Origin: a virus | Taxonomy: Duplodnaviria; Heunggongvirae; Uroviricota; Caudoviricetes | Length of the DNA: 8,605 nt | Direction: 5' to 3' (one strand) | Virus record (IMG/VR): IMGVR_UViG_2737471841_000007 | Coordinates: 1-8,605 of that record | Part shown: positions 1 through 6,990 of the stretch, in pieces | How the letters are laid out: each line of letters starts with the position of its first letter | Numbering within the stretch: the stretch's first letter is position 1 | Program-made: the position numbers and the translations under genes | The notes under the pieces: generated by a model | What the model saw: the letters and a program-made list of their open reading frames with translations, nothing else | Databases searched by the model: none | Told to the model about the DNA's origin: nothing

Positions 1-2010
1 TTACCAGTTTGTACTTATAAATAATCCATATATAATCCGTCTATAATTATCCAGTGCATCACTTGGATCTACTGATAGTGCGAATACGGCGCAATCACCT
101 ATACCATCATAGCTATTGGTCATGAGGCCTGAAAACCTAAATGAAGACCCGGCAGTTACTTCTGTAGTATATCTAAGGGCTTCTGTATAACCACCATCTG
201 TAGTTGAGTACACTTCAAATGATGCTGGTTTTAGTAAGGGATTCCCATAATTCTCAAATACTGCGAATCCAGTGAAATATTTTAATAAACTTTTAGTTGT
301 AACAAGTCTGCTAAATGTCTTATTAAAACCTATTCCAGATGTGTCGACTCCAGGTAGTGTTGTTCTCAGTGGGGTTTCTGACGACCCGGTCATTAATCTT
401 ACAGGAGCTGCGCCTCCACCAAGCCAATTATCAATTGTATTAAGGGGATCTTTATATGTTTGTATAGCATTTAAGCACCCTAAAGGGTATTGAACCCGTC
501 CTGGATATCCTCCAACCCCTCCAAATAGAATAGGCTCGGTTCTATAGATTTCACCTTTATCAGCATGATTTACAAGTTCTTTTACTAAGGTTTGGTACTT
601 TACTTCTTTTGCGAGCGTAGTGGTGAAGCCATTGTCCCAGCAGAATGCTGCGAAATCTCCATTGCCTGTTTTTCCGAAAACTCGGGCGGCAGATACAATC
701 TGATCAACATCAAAACAATATGACCCATTTATACCCTCCACTGGATTTGTTTCGAATTGAGAAAAAGTTTGCACGACAGGAATGATTCGCGCAGAACCAG
801 TTACCATCATGCATCCACCAATATCAGTCCTCATTTTACCAAGATCTTTATCAACCCTCTCTTGAAGAGAGCCTGATGAATAGTACATGCTGTAGCTATT
901 GACAAGAAAAACGTCATAATTCCTTGAGAATTTATATTCCCAAGGAGTATTGACCCACATGTAATCTACTGAAAAAAGCTTTTTACTCGTAAGTTCTCTC
1001 AGTGTTGCAATCATTTGGTCCTGATCGGCAACGCTGATTCCTCTACTGGCTGGTTCGTCAACTACGCTATATCCAATGCAGTTTGAAAAACTGTCACACC
1101 GACCAACAATCTCTGCAACAGTTCCTTGACCATGACTAGATTCAATATTTGTATTAATAACCACGTTCAATCCAGCAGATAGGCAATTATTGAGAAGCTT
1201 GGGCATGGTTCCGTCCATGTCGACAGTACCATTATTATCAAAATAGCAGTAATGAATAACGGTATTAAACCCCAAGGACTTTATTCTCAACATTTCACAA
1301 AAATCGTATGCTGTCCCTACGTATATGCCTCGGAAAAAAGCATTATCAGGCTTAGCATAATTTGAGGTAACAACAGCATTTGGTATGCTTATTCTTTGCA
1401 GATCTAAAGTTAGTTCTCCAACATATCTTTGCCCTTTAGTATTTATGATTTTAGTAACTTTATACTTCTTACCCTTGATCCCTATGATTTCTTTGCCAGT
1501 ATCAAATGCAGCCTGAATGGCGTCTGACCAATCATCATCAACAACAAGATTTGCATAATCTTCGATGTAAGCATATACATCACTACGCTTATTAAGGTTG
1601 TCTATATCAGTCTGCTTTGCGGCCCCATTTACTAAATCCACACCACCAGGTGCAGCAAGCTCCTGTCTTAACTGATCAGGATCGTACTTCAGCACATTAG
1701 GAAAATAGAATTGCTGAGAACCATACGCATCATAAACAGCCATAGAATGGCCTTGCACGGTAACGAATTTGGCAATCTGTCCGTTATATACCGGATAACC
1801 AGCAGCGTTAATGATGATTGGTTGAGAAACAGGAACGTGAGAGCCGTCTTCGTTCTCCACATAAACCTGAATCTGGTTTTCAGGATTTACCGGGTCAGTG
1901 TCAATTTTACCTATATAAATTTTACCATTGGCTACGGCTTTAAAAGAACGTGCCATAGTGAAGAGTTGCGAAGGCATTGATACGATCACATTGGCTGTAA
2001 TGTCTGTCAT
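1..2010 (-). CDS. Tailspike protein: P22 gp9-type N-terminal particle-binding domain fused to an unrelated receptor-binding (possibly enzymatic) domain
   Basis: 669-aa ORF, ATG at 2008..2010 with GGAG about 10 nt upstream on the minus strand, stop TAA at 1..3. The first ~115 residues ([42 protein letters not shown]...[15 protein letters not shown]....NVLKYDPDQ) match the P22 tailspike head-binding domain as I recall it. The rest does not resemble the P22 beta-helix sequence. It is the last gene after mnt, as in P22-like late operons. Confidence 0.85.
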
Positions 2011-2145
2011 TTAATTTGCTCCAGATACAAGGAATCACCGCAGCATGGCTACGGTTGGCATTTGTTACATACCGAAACGGTACTATTGTTGATTTGTACA
2101 GTAGGTTTTACGATGCCATTCCACCCAATTGGTGAGGCATCAAGG
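2011..2145. promoter_or_regulatory. Divergent control region between tailspike and mnt, with a candidate operator palindrome
   Basis: 135-bp gap between divergent start codons. It holds the inverted repeat TACCG-aaa-CGGTA (2069..2081), the near-repeats TTGTTACA (2062..2069) and TTTGTACA (2093..2100), and the RBS GGTGAGG (2131..2137) 8 nt before the mnt ATG. I could not find a sigma70 -35/-10 pair with canonical 17-bp spacing by eye, so promoter positions are unassigned. Confidence 0.35.
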
Positions 2146-2406
2146 ATGTACAGTAAATACGACGAGGCGCAGTTTCACTTGAGACTTCCGCATGAACTTC
2201 ACGCGAAAATTAAACAGCGCGCGAAGATGAATAACAGGTCGCTGAACTCAGAGATAATTGCAGCGATTGAAGAATCATTGGCTAAACAAAGCTCTGCATC
2301 AGTTTACATTGACGATGCAGAGCGTATGGCAGAACAACAATCTGATATGGTTAAGAAAATTGTCTTTGATACGCTCAAGAAGCTATATAAAAAAGACAGC
2401 AGATAA
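2146..2406 (+). CDS. mnt: Mnt-like ribbon-helix-helix repressor (Arc/MetJ superfamily)
   Basis: 86 aa from ATG 2146 (MYSKYDEAQFHLRLPHELHAKIKQRAKMNNRSLNSEIIAAIEESLAKQ...DDAERMAEQQSDMVKKIVFDTLKKLYKKDSR). It aligns along its length with P22 Mnt as I recall it (..FNFRMP.EVREKLKFRAEANGRSMNSELLQIVQDALSK...NDAERLADEQSELVKKMVFDTLKDLYKK). The ORF-track start at 2062 is a TTG with no RBS, whereas ATG 2146 has one. The gene is opposite in orientation to the late operon, as in P22 immI. Confidence 0.85.
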   Translation: MYSKYDEAQFHLRLPHELHAKIKQRAKMNNRSLNSEIIAAIEESLAKQSSASVYIDDAERMAEQQSDMVKKIVFDTLKKLYKKDSR

Positions 2407-2495: not shown

Positions 2496-4775
2496 CTATT
2501 CTGACAGCGCATCAGACTTAGACCCCTGAGTCAGAGCGTTAATGGCCTTTTGTGCCTGCTGCATGGCTTTCTCGAACACTGTTGATCCGCGTGGGGTGTT
2601 TGCCATTCGGAGCATTGCATTTCTGAATGGCTCGCTCTCATAGGCGCGAGTAAGAAGTCCATAGCTTACTGCTGCGCCAGTTGTTGCAGGGTTCATTGCC
2701 GTCCCATACCCAATAATGAACGGGATGGTTTGCTGCCCTGTTGGTGTTGTTACTGCTGCTTTTGCAGCCTGCTGCGTGGATTGCAGGTAGTTTTTCAATC
2801 CTTTCAGATAAGCGGCTTCCTGACCTTTAAATGTGATGCCAGTCTGGTTTTGCAGGATATTAAGCTGCCGAAGGAACTGGTCAGGGGATCCGCCAGATTT
2901 CTCCATCGCCTTTCCAATGATGCCATTGCGCATTTGCTCCCTGCCAACACGACCAACTGAGTTATACAGCGTCTTAATTTCAGATTTGTTCTTGCTGAAT
3001 AGCATGTTGTTGACAACTTCCGGCGTCAGATCGCCTTTCATGAGAACATTCTTCAGCCTGGTATTCTTTAGTTTCGCTGCTTCGTCAGCATAGACGGCAT
3101 TGGCCTGCTGATATTTACGGAGAGTATCGTTGCCAAGATTCTGACCAATGGCGCCATTGATATCGTCGGTCATTGCCTTGTAAACGCGCTGAATGGCAGC
3201 ATCGGAACGGTTTGGTAACACTGGTCGTTCCCCCTTCACGTCCATTCTGAACTGGCTGCGCAGATCGCTTAATTGCTTCAAATCCAGATTTACCGGACCA
3301 TCAGGACCAGCATTGCGAATAAGCTCATCACGATAGGATTGAAGTTTTGAAATCGTCTCGTTATCAGCGACCTTACCAAGCTTCTGCAGGTTAGATATCT
3401 CAGTATCAATCTGCTGAATTGCTCGCACAGGCTGAATGTTTACTCCAGCCATAGCATTCTGAACCTGCTCCAGTCGATTACCGGCAGCACGACGAATTCC
3501 TGATGTTTTCGCTTTAAGGCTGTCAATAACAACTGCCGGATCGTACTCGCCGAATTTATCAGCAAATCTCTGCACCAACTGGCTTCTCGCTTCCTGTTGC
3601 GTTGCTCTCATTCCGCTTGTGCCAGCCAGAGGGATATTTTCTGCTGTAGTCTGCGCCATTTTCCCGACGCGGGAAGTAGGCTGTAACAGGTCTGTGGTGT
3701 GCAGAGGCACTCCTTCACGCTCTGCAAATCTGATAGCTTGCTGCGCTTCTGGTGCAATAGCACCACGAACGCCACGATAAGCAGCGCCTAATCCACGTCC
3801 GGCAGCGTTAATAGCGCCGCCAGCCAGAACGCCAACGCCTAAATCGGTAGCGAGTGCTTCCGCATCATCTTTCGCACTATTTGCAGCAAGTGACCCGACT
3901 GCGTTTTCAGCGAGAAGGCGAGTTGCACCCTGAGCGATTCTACCAGCGAGTGTTGGTGCCTGTGTTGCCGCTCTCTCAATGCCAGCAGGAGTGAGGTAAG
4001 GCAATGCCTCAGCAAATACCCTGCCCTCTGTAGTTTGTGGAGTCAGCGCGCCTTGCTGAAGGCCAAAGTCCTGCTCTAATCCCTGCGTTGTTACTCGTGG
4101 CGCTGGGTGATATGTCCCATCGCCAATTCCGAGTTTACCGCCAGCCCATGCCGCCGCGCTTGTTACAGCATCGGCAACTGATGCAGGTATGTTTGCCACG
4201 TTCACGCCAGCCTGCACCAGTCCGCGACCAGTTTCAGCCGCGGCATTGCCAAGGTCGGAAATGAAACCTCCTTGCTGCTGTGGCGCTGCCTGTGTACTTT
4301 GCTGTACAGGCTGTTGTGTAGCTTGATTCTTCCTAGGGAGGTATTCATCAGCTTGCTGGTTGTGCAGACTCTCCGCATATGCAGTGGCATCGTCAGGATT
4401 GTCGAACATACCAAGATGCTTTCCCGTCCTCATGAAGTTATCAATAGCTTCATCATCAGACATAATGCGACCATCATCACTAACGGTAGGAATCAGCACC
4501 TCTCTACCATCTATATTGGTAGACATGCTCCGCACAGTGCTAATGCTGCCATCAGAGTTTTTAACAACAGGCCGATTGTGAATGTCAATATTACCCTTCT
4601 CTAGCAGACCTCTAGGGTAAGCAGAGTAAAACGCTTGTTTTGCCTGCTCTGCATTTTCTCCGGCTTGCGGGGCAACGACTTCATTGAAGTATTGCTCCTG
4701 AGCCTGCGCTTTTTGTTCTGGTGCTAACGCCTGATACTGTGGAGAGGCGATAACATCTTTCCATGCTTTAGCCAT
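2496..4775 (-). CDS. Putative virion ejection / DNA-transfer protein (P22 gp16-position homolog), intact
   Basis: 759-aa ORF with ATG at 4773..4775, GGGGTGA 5 nt upstream, and start overlapping the upstream stop (TAATG) which suggests translational coupling. It is Ala/Gln/Gly-rich and low-complexity, typical of podovirus ejection proteins, and is the last late gene before mnt and tailspike. Function is assigned by position and composition only; no motif was recognised. Confidence 0.5.
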   Translation of the reverse strand: MAKAWKDVIASPQYQALAPEQKAQAQEQYFNEVVAPQAGENAEQAKQAFYSAYPRGLLEKGNIDIHNRPVVKNSDGSISTVRSMSTNIDGREVLIPTVSDDGRIMSDDEAIDNFMRTGKHLGMFDNPDDATAYAESLHNQQADEYLPRKNQATQQPVQQSTQAAPQQQGGFISDLGNAAAETGRGLVQAGVNVANIPASVADAVTSAAAWAGGKLGIGDGTYHPAPRVTTQGLEQDFGLQQGALTPQTTEGRVFAEALPYLTPAGIERAATQAPTLAGRIAQGATRLLAENAVGSLAANSAKDDAEALATDLGVGVLAGGAINAAGRGLGAAYRGVRGAIAPEAQQAIRFAEREGVPLHTTDLLQPTSRVGKMAQTTAENIPLAGTSGMRATQQEARSQLVQRFADKFGEYDPAVVIDSLKAKTSGIRRAAGNRLEQVQNAMAGVNIQPVRAIQQIDTEISNLQKLGKVADNETISKLQSYRDELIRNAGPDGPVNLDLKQLSDLRSQFRMDVKGERPVLPNRSDAAIQRVYKAMTDDINGAIGQNLGNDTLRKYQQANAVYADEAAKLKNTRLKNVLMKGDLTPEVVNNMLFSKNKSEIKTLYNSVGRVGREQMRNGIIGKAMEKSGGSPDQFLRQLNILQNQTGITFKGQEAAYLKGLKNYLQSTQQAAKAAVTTPTGQQTIPFIIGYGTAMNPATTGAAVSYGLLTRAYESEPFRNAMLRMANTPRGSTVFEKAMQQAQKAINALTQGSKSDALSE

Positions 4776-5398
4776 TAATCACCCCATAGTGAAGAAAAGT
4801 TACTGCCAGTAGTAGATTGTTGCCCTGGCATATTCTGCACCGGCTCCTGATAATCAAACTGTTTTTTAACAGTGCTCAACTTGCTTTCAAGCTGATTTCT
4901 AATCTTTCCGATAGAGTCACGAAAAGCCTTTTCACTCATTTTTGGGCTTAGGGCACCAACCGCATCGGATAATTTTTTACCCTCAGCATCTGAAAGAGCG
5001 CCCATACCCTTCAGGGACTGCACCATAGGGAGGAAAGTTTGAGCTTTAAAGGTGTCGAGCCTTGCTTCAAAGTTAGCCGCATCAGAGCCAGGAACTGTCG
5101 GAAACGCTGAGCGAATTCCTACTGCTTTTGAAAGGCCGGGGCTTTGCTCTATCTCGTTGAGAGAATCAAGCGCGGTGCTGAACGTATCAACTGCACCCTG
5201 AGCGGCGGCCTGCCTGTCAGCGCGGGCTATGTCAGCCTTTTGCCGAACATCTGCCTGTTTCTGCTTTAACTCTTCAAGCTTTAACTGATTGCTTTCTCTG
5301 GCTATCTGTCTGTCCAGAGCCTTTTCTTGTAATTCTGCTCTTTGTATTTCGCGGGAAAGCGCAGCATTCTGTGCGCTGATGTTCTGTCCACGTACAGG
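4775..5398 (-). pseudogene. 3' remnant of an ejection-protein-like gene (gp20-position), no start codon; left side of a deletion junction
   Basis: The reading frame that ends at TAA 4775..4777 stays open upstream for about 207 codons, to an in-frame TGA at 5399..5401. It contains no ATG, GTG or TTG before the ATG at 5026 (the 83-aa track ORF). The product (..[57 protein letters not shown]..) is Ala/Gln-rich and looks coiled-coil-like. It is coupled to the downstream 759-aa gene. Confidence 0.55.
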
Positions 5399-5490
5399 TC
5401 ATTTGTCGCCTCGGTTCTGGCTTCATCGCTCGCCATCCAGTCCGCGTCAAACTTACACAGAATGGAATTGAGTCTGTTTTCGTCGGCCAT
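5302..5490 (-). pseudogene. Portal protein gene remnant: about 33 conserved N-terminal codons, then out-of-frame sequence and a stop
   Basis: ATG at 5488..5490 sits directly after the large-terminase stop (5491..5493), with GGAG 7 nt upstream. [33 protein letters not shown] matches the P22 portal N-terminus as I recall it ([34 protein letters not shown]). After that the ORF reads [29 protein letters not shown] and stops at 62 aa, where a portal should run about 700 aa. The downstream remnant is in a different frame. Confidence 0.7.
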
Positions 5491-6990
5491 TTAAGTTCTC
5501 CGTGCGATGGGCCTGATTGGGGCTGGTATCTTTTTCTCTTTTGGTTTTTTGATGTCGCGCATCATTTTGGCGAAGCGGCGCATCATGTATGCATAGCGAA
5601 CGGCTGAGAGAACGTCGTCGTTAAGCTTGACGATCTTCCCGTTTTCATCACGGTGATAGAGGCGAAACTCCTCAAAGAATGGCTCACAGGTGTTGAATAC
5701 TTTGAAGCGACCATCGAGCATCATGTCGCGCAATTCAGTGATGCCAGGCTCAACAGCATTACCGCCATCAGGCCATGTCGCATGCTCCTGCAACATCATA
5801 AATCCAGCGTCTGCATACTGCCCTTTGAGCTGCTCACCACCGCCCTTCTCGTGCTGGTTTCCGTCATGAGGCCATGCGGTTGGCACTTTATGCGCCCATG
5901 ATTTAACAGCTCCCCATGCCTGAACCGCTGTTTTTTCTTTCGCCTTCCACACGCGTGAAACGTAGATTGTGTCTGCGTCCTTATCCCACCAAAGCTGAAC
6001 CTGAGCCTGTGGGTGATCCCATCCGAAATCCATCCCGCCAATCACGTAGAAGTGATCAGGACACTCGAACGGCTGACACTTAATAGTCTCTTCCGGTATC
6101 TGGAAGATTCGACCACTACCCATCGTAGGAATACCGCGAGCACGCGCCTCTCTCTCATGCTCAGGATAGGATGCGATGATTTGCTCTTTCTGCTCGTCGG
6201 TGTAGTGCTCAGCGTCATAGATGGTCATGTTGACCACTTTCTGCGACTTGCTGGGATTCTTCAGGAACTTGGTAACAACGTCAGACATCCCCATCAGCGG
6301 GGTAAACGTCAGAATTGAGAATTGCCCGTATTTGTTGGTACGGGTAAGACCTTCGCCATAAATGCTGTATGGTGGCTCTTCGTCAAACCACACGCCGTGG
6401 ATTGTGTCACCCTGCCAGCGAGCGCGGCCTTGCGAGTATGGCTTGAAGTAGCAGATTGAAATGCCATCTTCAACGCCATCAGCCGTGTGATGCTTAACCA
6501 GAAGGTGATCAACAAGGTTCGGAAAGAAAGGAGACTTCTTCCAGCTAATAATGTCTTCTTTCGGTATGGAACCGTAGCCAGGCTCATCATTCTCTTCGAT
6601 ACGACCGCACAGGATGCGTTGAGTCGTTTTGGTTACAGTCTCGTTTGTCTCGCCACCAATCCAAAAGACAACGGGCTCATAGAAACGCTTACCTTTCCAC
6701 TCCCCACCATATTTACCATCAGCCGGATAGCCTTTTGTTCCCGGATAACGCCCGGTAAGGTGAAACGCGACTTCAGCAGCCCCAGTAAATGACTTACCAA
6801 GCTGGTTACCAGCCATAAAACAGCGCTCTGGATAGTCATGCCCGGCGTCGATGAACTCACGCTGTTTGCTGTATGGCGTAAATTCATATAGCAGGTGTGT
6901 GTTCCGGTAGTTCTCTTCTTCTTCGAGTAGCTCGAGCAACTCGATTTGCTCTTCGTCGCTCAGGTTATCAAGAATCGCGTCCAGTTCCAC
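5491..6990 (-). CDS. Terminase large subunit (P22 gp2-like)
   Basis: 499-aa ORF with Walker A P-loop AGNQLGKSF near the N-terminus and acidic residues in the C-terminal half consistent with a nuclease domain. Start is GTG at 6988..6990 with AAGGAG 11 nt upstream. It overlaps the small-terminase 3' end by 23 nt. Length and N-terminal sequence match P22 gp2 as I recall it. Confidence 0.9.

What the first reader, a model, noticed from the sequence alone, without database searches (positions are those of the whole stretch)
1..1680. Mosaic tailspike: conserved P22-type N-terminal domain joined to an AT-richer, unrelated receptor-binding module with possible glycosidase-like motifs
Residues 1 to about 115 (coordinates about 1665..2010) match the P22 gp9 head-binding domain. 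Beyond that the protein shows no resemblance to the P22 beta-helix sequence as I recall it, and by eye the DNA from about 1 to 1650 is clearly more AT-rich than the rest of the window, which suggests a horizontally acquired module. Segments such as ..[10 protein letters not shown].. and ..IGYSVVDEP.. loosely recall TIM-barrel glycoside hydrolase motifs (GH5-type NEP acid/base), which would be unusual for a P22-like tailspike, but this is a weak impression only.
Basis: partly seen in the sequence, partly recalled or inferred. Interest (0 to 1): 0.5.

Follow-up and report, generated by a model that had tools for sequence, protein, structure and literature searches.

The report
P22-type tailspike with TIM-barrel glycosidase
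This prophage tailspike keeps the standard P22 head-attachment domain, but its receptor-binding part is predicted to be a TIM-barrel glycosidase rather than the usual beta-helix, is found only in E. coli O4 strains, and belongs to a rare spike family described so far only in Acinetobacter phages.

The parts
1..2010 (-). Tailspike coding sequence, 669 aa, with the TAA stop at nt 1-3.
   Evidence: The ORF list. Stop codon and ribosome site checked. Identical protein found on other E. coli contigs.
1672..2010 (-). P22/Sf6-type head-binding (tail-hub attachment) domain, aa 1-113.
   Evidence: Pfam PF09008, E 1.8e-66, positions 1-113 of 113. Sf6 gp14 and P22 gp9 structures match aa 1-118 only. DNA similarity to P22-like phages ends at nt 1663-1673.
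1576..1671 (-). Linker, aa 114-145 ([20 protein letters not shown]...). It is shared by relatives that carry other N-terminal adaptors. The model has low confidence here, with one helix.
   Evidence: pLDDT 41-69 for fragment residues 1-30. The consensus [20 protein letters not shown] is kept across 60 homologues with different N-termini.
1360..1575 (-). Small cap domain, aa 146-217 ([14 protein letters not shown] ... TKGQ). It is homologous to the N-terminal cap of pectate-lyase-3-type beta-helix proteins. A second recombination junction lies at its TKGQ motif, at nt 1430.
   Evidence: Translation. PF12708 profile positions about 1-80 match just before the barrel in 16 of 74 distant relatives. 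The tailspike of O4 strain 160-11H1 is near-identical up to about aa 175 and shares TKGQ, then drops to about 35-40% identity. The DNA match ends at nt 1430.
556..1338 (-). (beta/alpha)8 barrel, aa 225-485: the predicted catalytic domain.
1051..1059 (-). D318-E319-P320 at the end of barrel strand 4. E319 is the predicted general acid/base; D318 replaces the Asn of the GH-A 'NEP' motif.
   Evidence: Translation. Aligned to N412-E413-P414 of E. coli GUS. D in 81 of 82, E in 82 of 82 and P in 82 of 82 distant relatives. Kept in APK26 gp48.
892..894 (-). Y373 at the end of barrel strand 6, a predicted active-site tyrosine.
   Evidence: Translation. Aligned to GUS Y468. Conserved in 81 of 82 relatives.
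766..786 (-). Barrel strand 7 (aa 409-415, IIPVVQT). The position where clan GH-A enzymes carry the nucleophile Glu is Gln here, and Gly, Pro, Ser or Ala in nearly all relatives.
   Evidence: Strand assignment from the model. Residue counts at fragment position 299: Q/S/A/G in 60 close relatives; G in 61, P in 13 and E in only 2 of 82 distant relatives.
4..540 (-). C-terminal beta-sandwich, aa 491-669, ending in an invariant Trp. It probably binds carbohydrate and/or holds the trimer together.
   Evidence: All-beta secondary structure for fragment residues 376-554. Foldseek matches to GH5+CBM enzymes, reelin repeats and the lambda tail-tip protein. W669 is invariant, including in the Acinetobacter phages.

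Best explanation
The gene encodes a trimeric tailspike of a P22-like (Lederbergvirus-type) prophage.

The N-terminal 113 residues dock the spike onto the tail hub, as in P22 and Sf6. The usual beta-helix is replaced by a swapped-in cassette of three parts:
- a short cap domain left over from a beta-helix ancestor;
- a (beta/alpha)8 barrel distantly related to clan GH-A glycosidases;
- a C-terminal beta-sandwich.

The barrel is an endoglycosidase that binds and cuts a surface polysaccharide of the host, most likely the E. coli O4 O-antigen, so that the virion can reach the outer membrane.

E319, in the invariant D318-E319-P320 motif at the end of strand 4, acts as the general acid/base. Y373 on strand 6 lines the active site. 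The family lacks the strand-7 nucleophile of clan GH-A. The second catalytic function must therefore come from elsewhere. My preferred guess is the substrate's own 2-acetamido group, oriented by D318, as in GH18, GH20 and GH123. That would mean cleavage at a beta-linked HexNAc such as the GlcNAc that joins O4 repeats.

Shown: the domain architecture, predicted fold, motif conservation, mosaicism, homology to a proven glycosidase, and the O4 association. Inferred: the enzyme activity of this protein, the O4 substrate, and the catalytic mechanism.
For: Fold.
- AF2 model: pLDDT 91.5, pTM 0.89, all five models at 89.8 or above.
- Foldseek gives the same classes.

Sequence evidence independent of the model.
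- The barrel profile hits E. coli GUS (GH2) at E 1.2e-4. DEP aligns on NEP, and YD...Y aligns on FD...NRY.
- One distant member hits Pfam Glyco_hydro_2_C at E 1.1e-4.

Conservation.
- D318, E319, P320, D366 and Y373 are kept in 81-82 of 82 relatives at 13-27% identity.
- No conserved carboxylate sits at the end of strand 7.

Link to a proven enzyme.
- Acinetobacter phage tailspikes Aci07, Bestia, IME284, APK26 and AB3P2 match by tblastn (E 1e-34 to 7e-8).
- The Aci07 model matches over the full length (TM 0.81).
- APK26 gp48 keeps DEP, the Tyr, and Gly at the strand-7 end. The literature reports it as a glycosidase that hydrolyses K26 capsule (PMC11126041). It has been modelled as a TIM barrel (PMC11823257).

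Receptor.
- All 17 complete E. coli genomes with any match to nt 1-1680 are among the 36 of 5426 that carry the O4 wzx-wzy cluster.
- In strain CUPF06 the prophage lies 1.44 Mb from that cluster.
- Two further diverged barrel alleles are each found only in an O4 genome.
- O-antigen conversion genes sit directly downstream of each allele: Wzy-like, gtrAB plus a third gene, or OafA-like.

Cassette mobility.
- The module is joined to four or more adaptor types.
Against: - No experiment exists on this protein. The fold is a prediction and I could not inspect its coordinates, so clustering of the conserved residues is inferred only from their positions at strand ends.
- The protein passes no curated GH family threshold.
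- The O4 link is confounded. Sixteen of the 17 genomes with a match carry it at the sbcB-dacD locus, about 30 kb from the O-antigen cluster, and many are probably clonal. Only one genome gives unlinked cases.
- The O-type of the window's own strain is unknown.
- Every copy seen in complete genomes sits in a defective prophage, and so does the window copy, so infectivity has never been observed.
- The substrate-assisted step rests on a motif analogy. Distant relatives infect an E. coli O153 host, whose O-antigen as I recall it has only alpha-linked GlcNAc. That would not suit this mechanism family-wide.
- I could not read which linkage APK26 gp48 cuts.
Confidence: 0.7

Rival explanations
1. The barrel is a glycosidase that does not use substrate assistance. 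E319 is the acid/base, and another carboxylate serves as nucleophile or general base. Candidates are D349 on strand 5, D459 on strand 8 and D236 after strand 1. The enzyme cuts a Rha, Glc or FucNAc linkage.
For: D349 is Asp or Glu in 61 of 82 relatives and D459 in 57 of 82. All three are invariant or nearly so in the close family. Relatives occur in phages of hosts with quite different polysaccharides: Acinetobacter K26, E. coli O153, Pectobacterium and Vibrio.
Against: None of these carboxylates is conserved across the whole family, whereas D318, E319 and Y373 are. An Asp replacing the GH-A Asn next to the acid/base is the pattern of enzymes that work on 2-acetamido sugars. That last point is from general knowledge of GH18, GH20 and GH123 and was not tested here.
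Confidence: 0.3
2. The receptor is not the O4 O-antigen but another surface glycan such as a group 2 capsule, colanic acid or ECA. On this view the O4 association reflects physical linkage and clonal descent.
For: Most copies lie about 30 kb from the O-antigen cluster at sbcB-dacD. Twelve copies share the same IS-truncated form, which suggests one clone. The characterised relatives degrade capsules, not O-antigens (PMC11126041).
Against: In CUPF06 two different barrel-type tailspikes sit 1.44 Mb and 0.37 Mb from the O4 cluster. The window prophage itself is at the ybhB-bioA site, not at sbcB-dacD. Known P22-like tailspikes target O-antigen (or K1 capsule in CUS-3); this is from general knowledge. 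O-antigen conversion genes follow every allele.
Confidence: 0.2
3. The module only binds its receptor and has lost catalysis, making it a lectin-like spike.
For: The canonical GH-A nucleophile is missing. No activity data exist for this protein.
Against: The same nucleophile-less arrangement occurs in APK26 gp48, which does hydrolyse its capsule (PMC11126041). DEP and the Tyr are kept down to 13% identity, which argues for selection on an active site.
Confidence: 0.08
4. It is a standard right-handed beta-helix tailspike, too diverged for sequence searches to recognise.
For: The cap domain (aa 146-217) is homologous to the N-terminal cap of pectate-lyase-3 beta-helix proteins.
Confidence: 0.01
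5. It is a polysaccharide lyase, as the homologue in phage PE3-1 is annotated.
For: The GenBank product name 'lyase' on PE3-1 gp18.
Against: The fold and motif are those of hydrolases. The characterised relative acts by hydrolysis (PMC11126041). The O4 gene cluster encodes Rha and FucNAc pathways and no uronic-acid step.
Confidence: 0.02

Closest known systems
P22 gp9, Sf6 gp14 and HK620 tailspikes (Lederbergvirus)
   Same: Same head-binding domain: about 90% identical to Sf6 gp14 over aa 1-118. Same gene position after mnt/arc. Same junction at the ...YDPDQ... end of the domain. Presumably the same role as a trimeric spike that destroys its receptor.
   Different: The receptor-binding part is a predicted (beta/alpha)8 barrel plus a beta-sandwich instead of a right-handed beta-helix. 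There is no sequence similarity after aa 118.
TIM-barrel ('transglycosidase domain') tailspikes of Acinetobacter phages: APK26 gp48, Aci07 gp45, Bestia gp53, AB3P2 (PMC11823257, PMC11126041)
   Same: Homologous over cap, barrel and C-terminal domain: 23-28% identity, tblastn E down to 1e-34, model TM 0.81. They share DEP, the D...Y motif, Gly at the strand-7 end and the C-terminal Trp. APK26 gp48 is a proven glycosidase.
   Different: Different N-terminal adaptors (T7-like or myovirus-type) and a different host genus. Their target is capsule rather than, probably, O-antigen. They come from lytic phages rather than a temperate P22-like prophage.
Clan GH-A glycoside hydrolases: GH2 beta-glucuronidase, GH5 mannanases, GH42 and GH164
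   Different: Asp replaces the Asn before the acid/base. No nucleophile Glu on strand 7. No Pfam GH model is passed. The barrel is embedded in a virion spike.
CUS-3 and K1F-type endosialidase spikes (general knowledge)
   Same: A precedent for a P22-type head-binding domain or other adaptor carrying a catalytic module that is not a beta-helix.
   Different: Those modules are beta-propeller sialidases, unrelated in fold and sequence to this barrel. I did not test this comparison here.
GH18, GH20 and GH123 substrate-assisted hexosaminidases (general knowledge)
   Same: TIM barrels with adjacent Asp and Glu at the end of strand 4, a Tyr on a later strand, and no enzyme nucleophile. This matches the D318-E319/Y373 pattern seen here.

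Membership tests
P22-type tailspike head-binding domain (Pfam PF09008) | Full-length match to the Head_binding profile above the gathering score. | tested here: met
   221.9 bits against a cut-off of 24; profile positions 1-113 of 113. Sf6 and P22 structures match aa 1-118.
P22/Sf6/HK620 beta-helix receptor-binding domain | Right-handed parallel beta-helix after the head-binding domain. | tested here: not met
Clan GH-A glycoside hydrolases | (beta/alpha)8 barrel fold. | tested here: met
Clan GH-A glycoside hydrolases | Acid/base Glu in an Asn-Glu-Pro motif at the end of strand 4. | tested here: inconclusive
   Glu and Pro are present and invariant, and they align with GUS E413-P414. The Asn is replaced by an invariant Asp.
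Clan GH-A glycoside hydrolases | Nucleophile Glu at the end of strand 7. | tested here: not met
   The equivalent position is Q, S, A or G in 60 close relatives. In 82 distant relatives it is G (61) or P (13), with E in only 2.
Curated GH families GH2, GH5 and GH42 (Pfam models) | Score above the family's gathering threshold. | tested here: not met
   No Pfam hit for the window protein even at E up to 1. Only a partial profile hit to GUS covering strands 4-6, and one distant member at E 1.1e-4 to PF02836.
TIM-barrel tailspike depolymerases (the APK26 gp48 / Aci07 group) | Detectable homology across the barrel, with the same order of cap, barrel and C-terminal sandwich. | tested here: met
   tblastn E 1e-34 to 7e-8. 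BFVD Foldseek E 3e-46 with TM 0.81 to the Aci07 model. Shared motifs in alignment A6.
TIM-barrel tailspike depolymerases (the APK26 gp48 / Aci07 group) | Hydrolytic depolymerisation of the host polysaccharide. | not testable with these tools
   Reported for APK26 gp48 only (Kasimova 2021, cited in PMC11126041). No data for this protein.
Substrate-assisted hexosaminidases (GH18/GH20/GH123-like mechanism) | An Asp-Glu pair on strand 4, a supporting Tyr and no enzyme nucleophile. | tested here: met
   D318-E319 and Y373 are conserved and the strand-7 carboxylate is absent. This is a pattern match, not family membership.
Substrate-assisted hexosaminidases (GH18/GH20/GH123-like mechanism) | The substrate bond is a beta-linked 2-acetamido sugar, and the reaction passes through an oxazoline intermediate. 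| not testable with these tools
   The O4 repeat has beta-GlcNAc at its reducing end according to my recollection of the published structure. The gene cluster content is consistent with Rha and FucNAc. No biochemical data.

The most novel reading that the evidence does not exclude
These barrel-type spikes may form an unclassified glycoside hydrolase family. It would descend from clan GH-A, have lost the strand-7 nucleophile, and have turned the NEP motif into DEP so that it cleaves beta-HexNAc linkages between polysaccharide repeats by substrate-assisted catalysis. In E. coli the family would have split into at least three O4-specific alleles. Each would be paired with a different prophage O-antigen conversion gene (Wzy-like polymerase, Gtr glucosylation or OafA-like acetylation), recording an arms race over a single serogroup.
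Probability: 0.25. Interest if true: 0.65.

Novelty: new member of a known kind. Interest (0 to 1): 0.42.

Why it matters
P22-family tailspikes are the textbook beta-helix spikes. A member that carries a TIM barrel on the same head-binding domain shows that the adaptor accepts a quite different fold. It also raises the question of how a barrel enzyme is built into a trimeric spike. No experimental structure of a barrel-type spike turned up in the PDB searches I ran.

The missing nucleophile makes the chemistry worth testing.

O4 is a clinically important extraintestinal E. coli serogroup. An O4-specific depolymerase could be used for typing, for glycan preparation or as an anti-virulence reagent.

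The pairing of the spike with a prophage Wzy-like polymerase suggests how a lysogen could protect its own O-antigen from the spike. That idea is testable.

Tried and rejected
Searches that found nothing or could not run:
- Pfam, PHROGs and NCBIfam scans of aa 116-669 found nothing, even at lax thresholds.
- A single-sequence PDB search found nothing beyond aa 118.
- The afdb50 fold library was not available.
- Full-text searches for TIM-barrel tailspikes returned only unrelated papers. The relevant Acinetobacter papers surfaced through capsule-tailspike searches made after the tblastn hits.

Literature I could not reach:
- The paper giving the linkage cut by APK26 gp48 (Kasimova 2021) is not held. 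The K26 structure is only in figures. The substrate-assisted idea could therefore not be checked against it.
- The O4 repeat structure could not be retrieved from the held reviews. It is quoted from memory.

Ideas rejected:
- Beta-helix fold.
- Lyase.
- Placing the module boundary by GC content. There is no step at the domain junction.

Checked without result:
- The Wzy-like neighbour has no Pfam or NCBIfam hit. Its identity rests on source names and on homologues annotated as O-antigen polymerases.
Full report
**What is in the sequence.** The window carries one long ORF on the minus strand from nt 2010 to nt 4. Its TAA stop is at nt 1-3, and a GGAG ribosome site lies 8 nt upstream of the ATG. 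It encodes 669 aa.
- Residues 1-113 match the Pfam Head_binding profile end to end (E 1.8e-66).
- They also match the solved N-terminal domains of Sf6 gp14 (about 90% identity over 118 aa) and P22 gp9.
- After residue 118 nothing in the PDB matches by sequence.
- Pfam, PHROGs and NCBIfam are silent for residues 116-669.
- At the DNA level, similarity to Sf6, HK620-like and other P22-like phages stops at nt 1663-1673.

**Composition.** Nt 1-1665 have 39.3% GC and the rest of the window 48.7%. No other stretch of 1665 nt in the window falls below 46.7%.
- The head-binding part (41.4%) and the neighbouring mnt gene (40.6%) are also low, so the AT-rich block runs to about nt 2450.
- There is no step at the domain junction. 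Only third-position GC drops within the gene, from 0.38 to 0.30.
- On the contig that holds the window, the gene just beyond the window end is lower still, at 35%.

Composition marks a tailspike and conversion-gene region. It does not mark the module boundary.

**Fold of the C-terminal 554 residues.** I aligned 60 homologues (31-96% identity) and predicted the structure. The mean pLDDT is 91.5 and pTM is 0.89, and all five models score 89.8 or above. The layout in full-length numbering is:
- a poorly ordered linker, aa 116-145;
- a small alpha/beta domain, aa 146-217;
- eight alternating strand-helix units, aa 225-485;
- an all-beta domain, aa 491-669.

**Evidence independent of the model.** A profile built from the barrel region alone (19 sequences) hits E. 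coli beta-glucuronidase, a GH2 enzyme, at E 1.2e-4.
- The family motif GYSVyDEP lies on GUS VMWSIANEP. E319 therefore corresponds to the GUS acid/base E413, and D318 to the Asn before it.
- The family motif YDvvlvdsY lies on GUS FDVLCLNRY, so Y373 corresponds to GUS Y468.
- One distant family member also hits Pfam Glyco_hydro_2_C at E 1.1e-4.

The guess of a GH-A type acid/base motif is borne out.

**What is unusual in the active site.** A profile search of 1.84 billion cluster representatives found only 268 relatives at E up to 0.001. I aligned 81 of the more distant ones, at 13-27% identity, with the window protein.
- D318 is kept in 81 of 82 sequences, E319 and P320 in 82 of 82, D366 in 82 of 82, and Y373 in 81 of 82.
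- At the end of strand 7, where clan GH-A enzymes carry the nucleophile Glu, the window protein has Gln. Close relatives have Q, S, A or G. Distant ones have Gly or Pro in 74 of 82 and Glu in only 2.
- No other carboxylate is conserved family-wide. D349 is Asp or Glu in 61 of 82, and D459 in 57 of 82.

The protein therefore fails one defining feature of clan GH-A and should not be filed in GH2 or GH5. An Asp-Glu pair on strand 4, a Tyr on a later strand and no enzyme nucleophile is the pattern of substrate-assisted hexosaminidases (GH18, GH20, GH123). That comparison comes from general knowledge and I have not tested it. I give it about one chance in three.

**Relatives with known function.** A tblastn search of 50,697 phage genomes found 13 records:
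- Dickeya phage Monomax (37% identity) and Escherichia virus TH27 (35%);
- Acinetobacter phages Bestia, IME284 and Aci07 (26-28%);
- the E. coli O153 phages PE3-1 and JSS1 (26%);
- Acinetobacter phages APK26 and AB3P2 (23-24%);
- a Vibrio phage.

The predicted structure of the Aci07 spike superposes over the full length (TM 0.81, E 3e-46). A 2025 survey modelled exactly these four Acinetobacter spikes (Aci07, Bestia, AB3P2, APK26) as TIM barrels. They were 4 of the 313 tail fibre and spike proteins examined (PMC11823257). APK26 gp48 is reported to hydrolyse K26 capsule into repeat-unit oligomers (PMC11126041). In my alignment APK26 gp48 keeps DEP, the D...Y motif, Gly at the strand-7 end and the C-terminal Trp. 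The nucleophile-less arrangement is therefore compatible with real glycosidase activity. I could not read which linkage it cuts.

**Mosaic structure.** The C-terminal module is attached in other genomes to the P22 head-binding domain, to the TSP1/gp66 N-terminal domain (PF18668), to the T7 fibre N-terminus (PF03906), to PF27114, or to unannotated N-termini. It occurs in Escherichia, Enterobacter and Pantoea. One example is the tail fibre of a contractile-tail prophage of Enterobacter asburiae.

There are two nested junctions.
- The first is at nt 1663-1673, the end of the head-binding domain.
- The second is at nt 1430. The tailspike of E. coli strain 160-11H1 is near-identical to the window protein through the head-binding domain, the linker and most of the cap domain (to about aa 175). 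It then falls to about 35-40% identity. The DNA match ends at nt 1430, at the shared TKGQ motif (aa 191-194).

The small domain before the barrel (aa 146-217, [14 protein letters not shown]...) is homologous to the first 60-80 residues of the pectate-lyase-3 profile PF12708, in 16 of 74 distant relatives. It looks like a beta-helix cap left in front of a barrel.

**Likely receptor.** Among 5426 complete E. coli genomes, 17 have any match to nt 1-1680. Three carry the intact gene, twelve carry a copy cut at nt 1461 by an ISSen4 element, and two match only near the junction. The O4 wzx-wzy segment occurs in 36 genomes, and all 17 are among them.
- Taken at face value the hypergeometric probability is about 1e-39. 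The cases are not independent, however. Sixteen of the 17 copies sit at the sbcB-dacD locus, about 30 kb from the O-antigen cluster, and many strains are probably clonal.
- The better evidence is strain CUPF06. There the window-type prophage lies at ybhB-bioA, 1.44 Mb from the O4 cluster. A second, 44%-identical barrel allele lies 0.37 Mb from the cluster and is found in no other complete genome.
- The 160-11H1 allele is also unique to an O4 genome.
- The window's own contig places the prophage at ybhB-bioA as well. I could not determine that strain's O-type.
- The O4 cluster encodes the dTDP-Rha and UDP-L-FucNAc pathways and three glycosyltransferases.

As I recall the published structure, the O4 repeat is Rha-Glc-FucNAc-GlcNAc, joined through beta-GlcNAc. 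That would suit the proposed chemistry, but I could not re-read it. I put O4 O-antigen as the receptor at roughly two chances in three.

**Genes that follow the spike.** Immediately after the tailspike stop, outside the window, lies a convergent 375-aa membrane-protein gene.
- UniRef names this exact protein an oligosaccharide repeat unit polymerase. Homologues at 39-44% identity are annotated as O-antigen polymerases. Pfam and NCBIfam give nothing significant.
- An 83%-identical copy follows the barrel-type tail fibre in the Enterobacter prophage.
- The other two E. coli alleles are followed by gtrA, gtrB and a third gene, or by an OafA-like acyltransferase.
- In strain LCP17S3_I1 the chromosomal O4 wzy is frameshifted while the prophage polymerase-like gene is present.

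This fits the usual logic that a temperate phage alters the O-antigen its own spike attacks. It is an inference only.

**State of the prophage.** The window is a deleted prophage. The large terminase gene (nt 5491-6990) is followed by a portal ORF that keeps only about 33 portal-like residues before the junction. That junction, at about nt 5393, fuses it to the last third of the Sf6 gp12 / P22 gp20-type ejection gene. The head, scaffold and tail-hub genes are missing. The copies in complete genomes are also in degraded prophages. The tailspike gene itself is intact and 99-100% identical across many contigs.

**Verdict.** This is a P22-type tailspike whose receptor-binding part is a predicted TIM-barrel glycosidase of a rare family. 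One distant member of that family has been characterised, and the fold has been noted for four Acinetobacter phage spikes. It is a new member of that kind, in a new phage lineage, with a probable new target.

The points that go beyond what I found in the literature are:
- the missing nucleophile with an invariant DEP motif;
- the beta-helix cap remnant;
- the O4 restriction of three diverged alleles;
- the pairing with a Wzy-like gene.

All need experiments.

Noticed in passing
window 5027-5490 (with 4775-5026): Deletion scar. The portal ORF (62 aa, nt 5302-5490, minus strand) keeps only about 33 portal-like residues. At about nt 5393 it is fused to the C-terminal third of an Sf6 gp12 / P22 gp20-type ejection gene, whose tail is the 83-aa ORF. 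The portal, scaffold, coat and tail-hub genes are missing, so the prophage is defective.
   Followed up: partly
L004 9216-10343 (just beyond window nt 1); also L003, L005, L001 11044-11988, L007 19044-19988: A convergent 375-aa polytopic membrane protein (35% GC) directly follows the tailspike. UniRef names it an oligosaccharide repeat unit polymerase, and homologues at 39-44% identity are annotated as O-antigen polymerases. An 83%-identical copy follows a 42%-identical barrel-type tail fibre in an Enterobacter asburiae contractile-tail prophage (L008 10366-11505).
   Followed up: partly
L006 12588-13774 (E. coli LCP17S3_I1): The chromosomal O4 wzy is annotated as frameshifted in a strain that carries the intact tailspike and the prophage Wzy-like gene. 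The prophage polymerase may substitute for it.
   Followed up: no
L002 12000-14609 (UPEC132 and 11 other O4 genomes): The window-type tailspike is cut at window nt 1461 by an ISSen4 insertion. It sits beside gtrA, gtrB and a 421-aa hypothetical gene at the sbcB-dacD locus, about 30 kb from the O4 cluster. This is a prophage remnant shared by human, dog and chicken extraintestinal isolates.
   Followed up: partly
window 1360-1575: The small domain before the barrel ([14 protein letters not shown]...TKGQ) is homologous to the N-terminal cap of pectate-lyase-3 beta-helix proteins: PF12708 positions 1-80 match in 16 of 74 distant relatives. The barrel seems to have replaced a beta-helix body behind a retained cap.
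   Followed up: partly
window 1430; L014 4620-6527: A second recombination junction lies inside the gene. The tailspike of O4 strain 160-11H1 is near-identical up to about aa 175 and shares the TKGQ motif (aa 191-194), where the DNA match ends. Barrel and C-terminal domain are then only about 35-40% identical. Three diverged barrel alleles exist in complete E. coli genomes, each only in O4 strains.
   Followed up: partly
window 4-6 (W669): The C-terminal tryptophan (...TNW, SNW or SDW, then stop) is invariant in all alignments, including the Acinetobacter phage spikes at 21-27% identity. Its role is unknown; it may act in trimer assembly.
   Followed up: no
window 2496-4775: The 759-aa P22 gp16-type DNA-transfer protein matches PHROG 770 over its full length. 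It also matches a 'transglycosylase' PHROG over aa 257-478, and RefSeq names its homologues lytic transglycosylase domain proteins. GC reaches 55-57% in its middle, the highest in the window.
   Followed up: no
window 2062-2406: An Mnt/Arc-type repressor gene on the plus strand, divergent from the tailspike. The mechanical ORF starts at a TTG and gives 114 aa, whereas gene callers on other contigs give 86-97 aa. It belongs to the same AT-rich block as the tailspike (40.6% GC).
   Followed up: no
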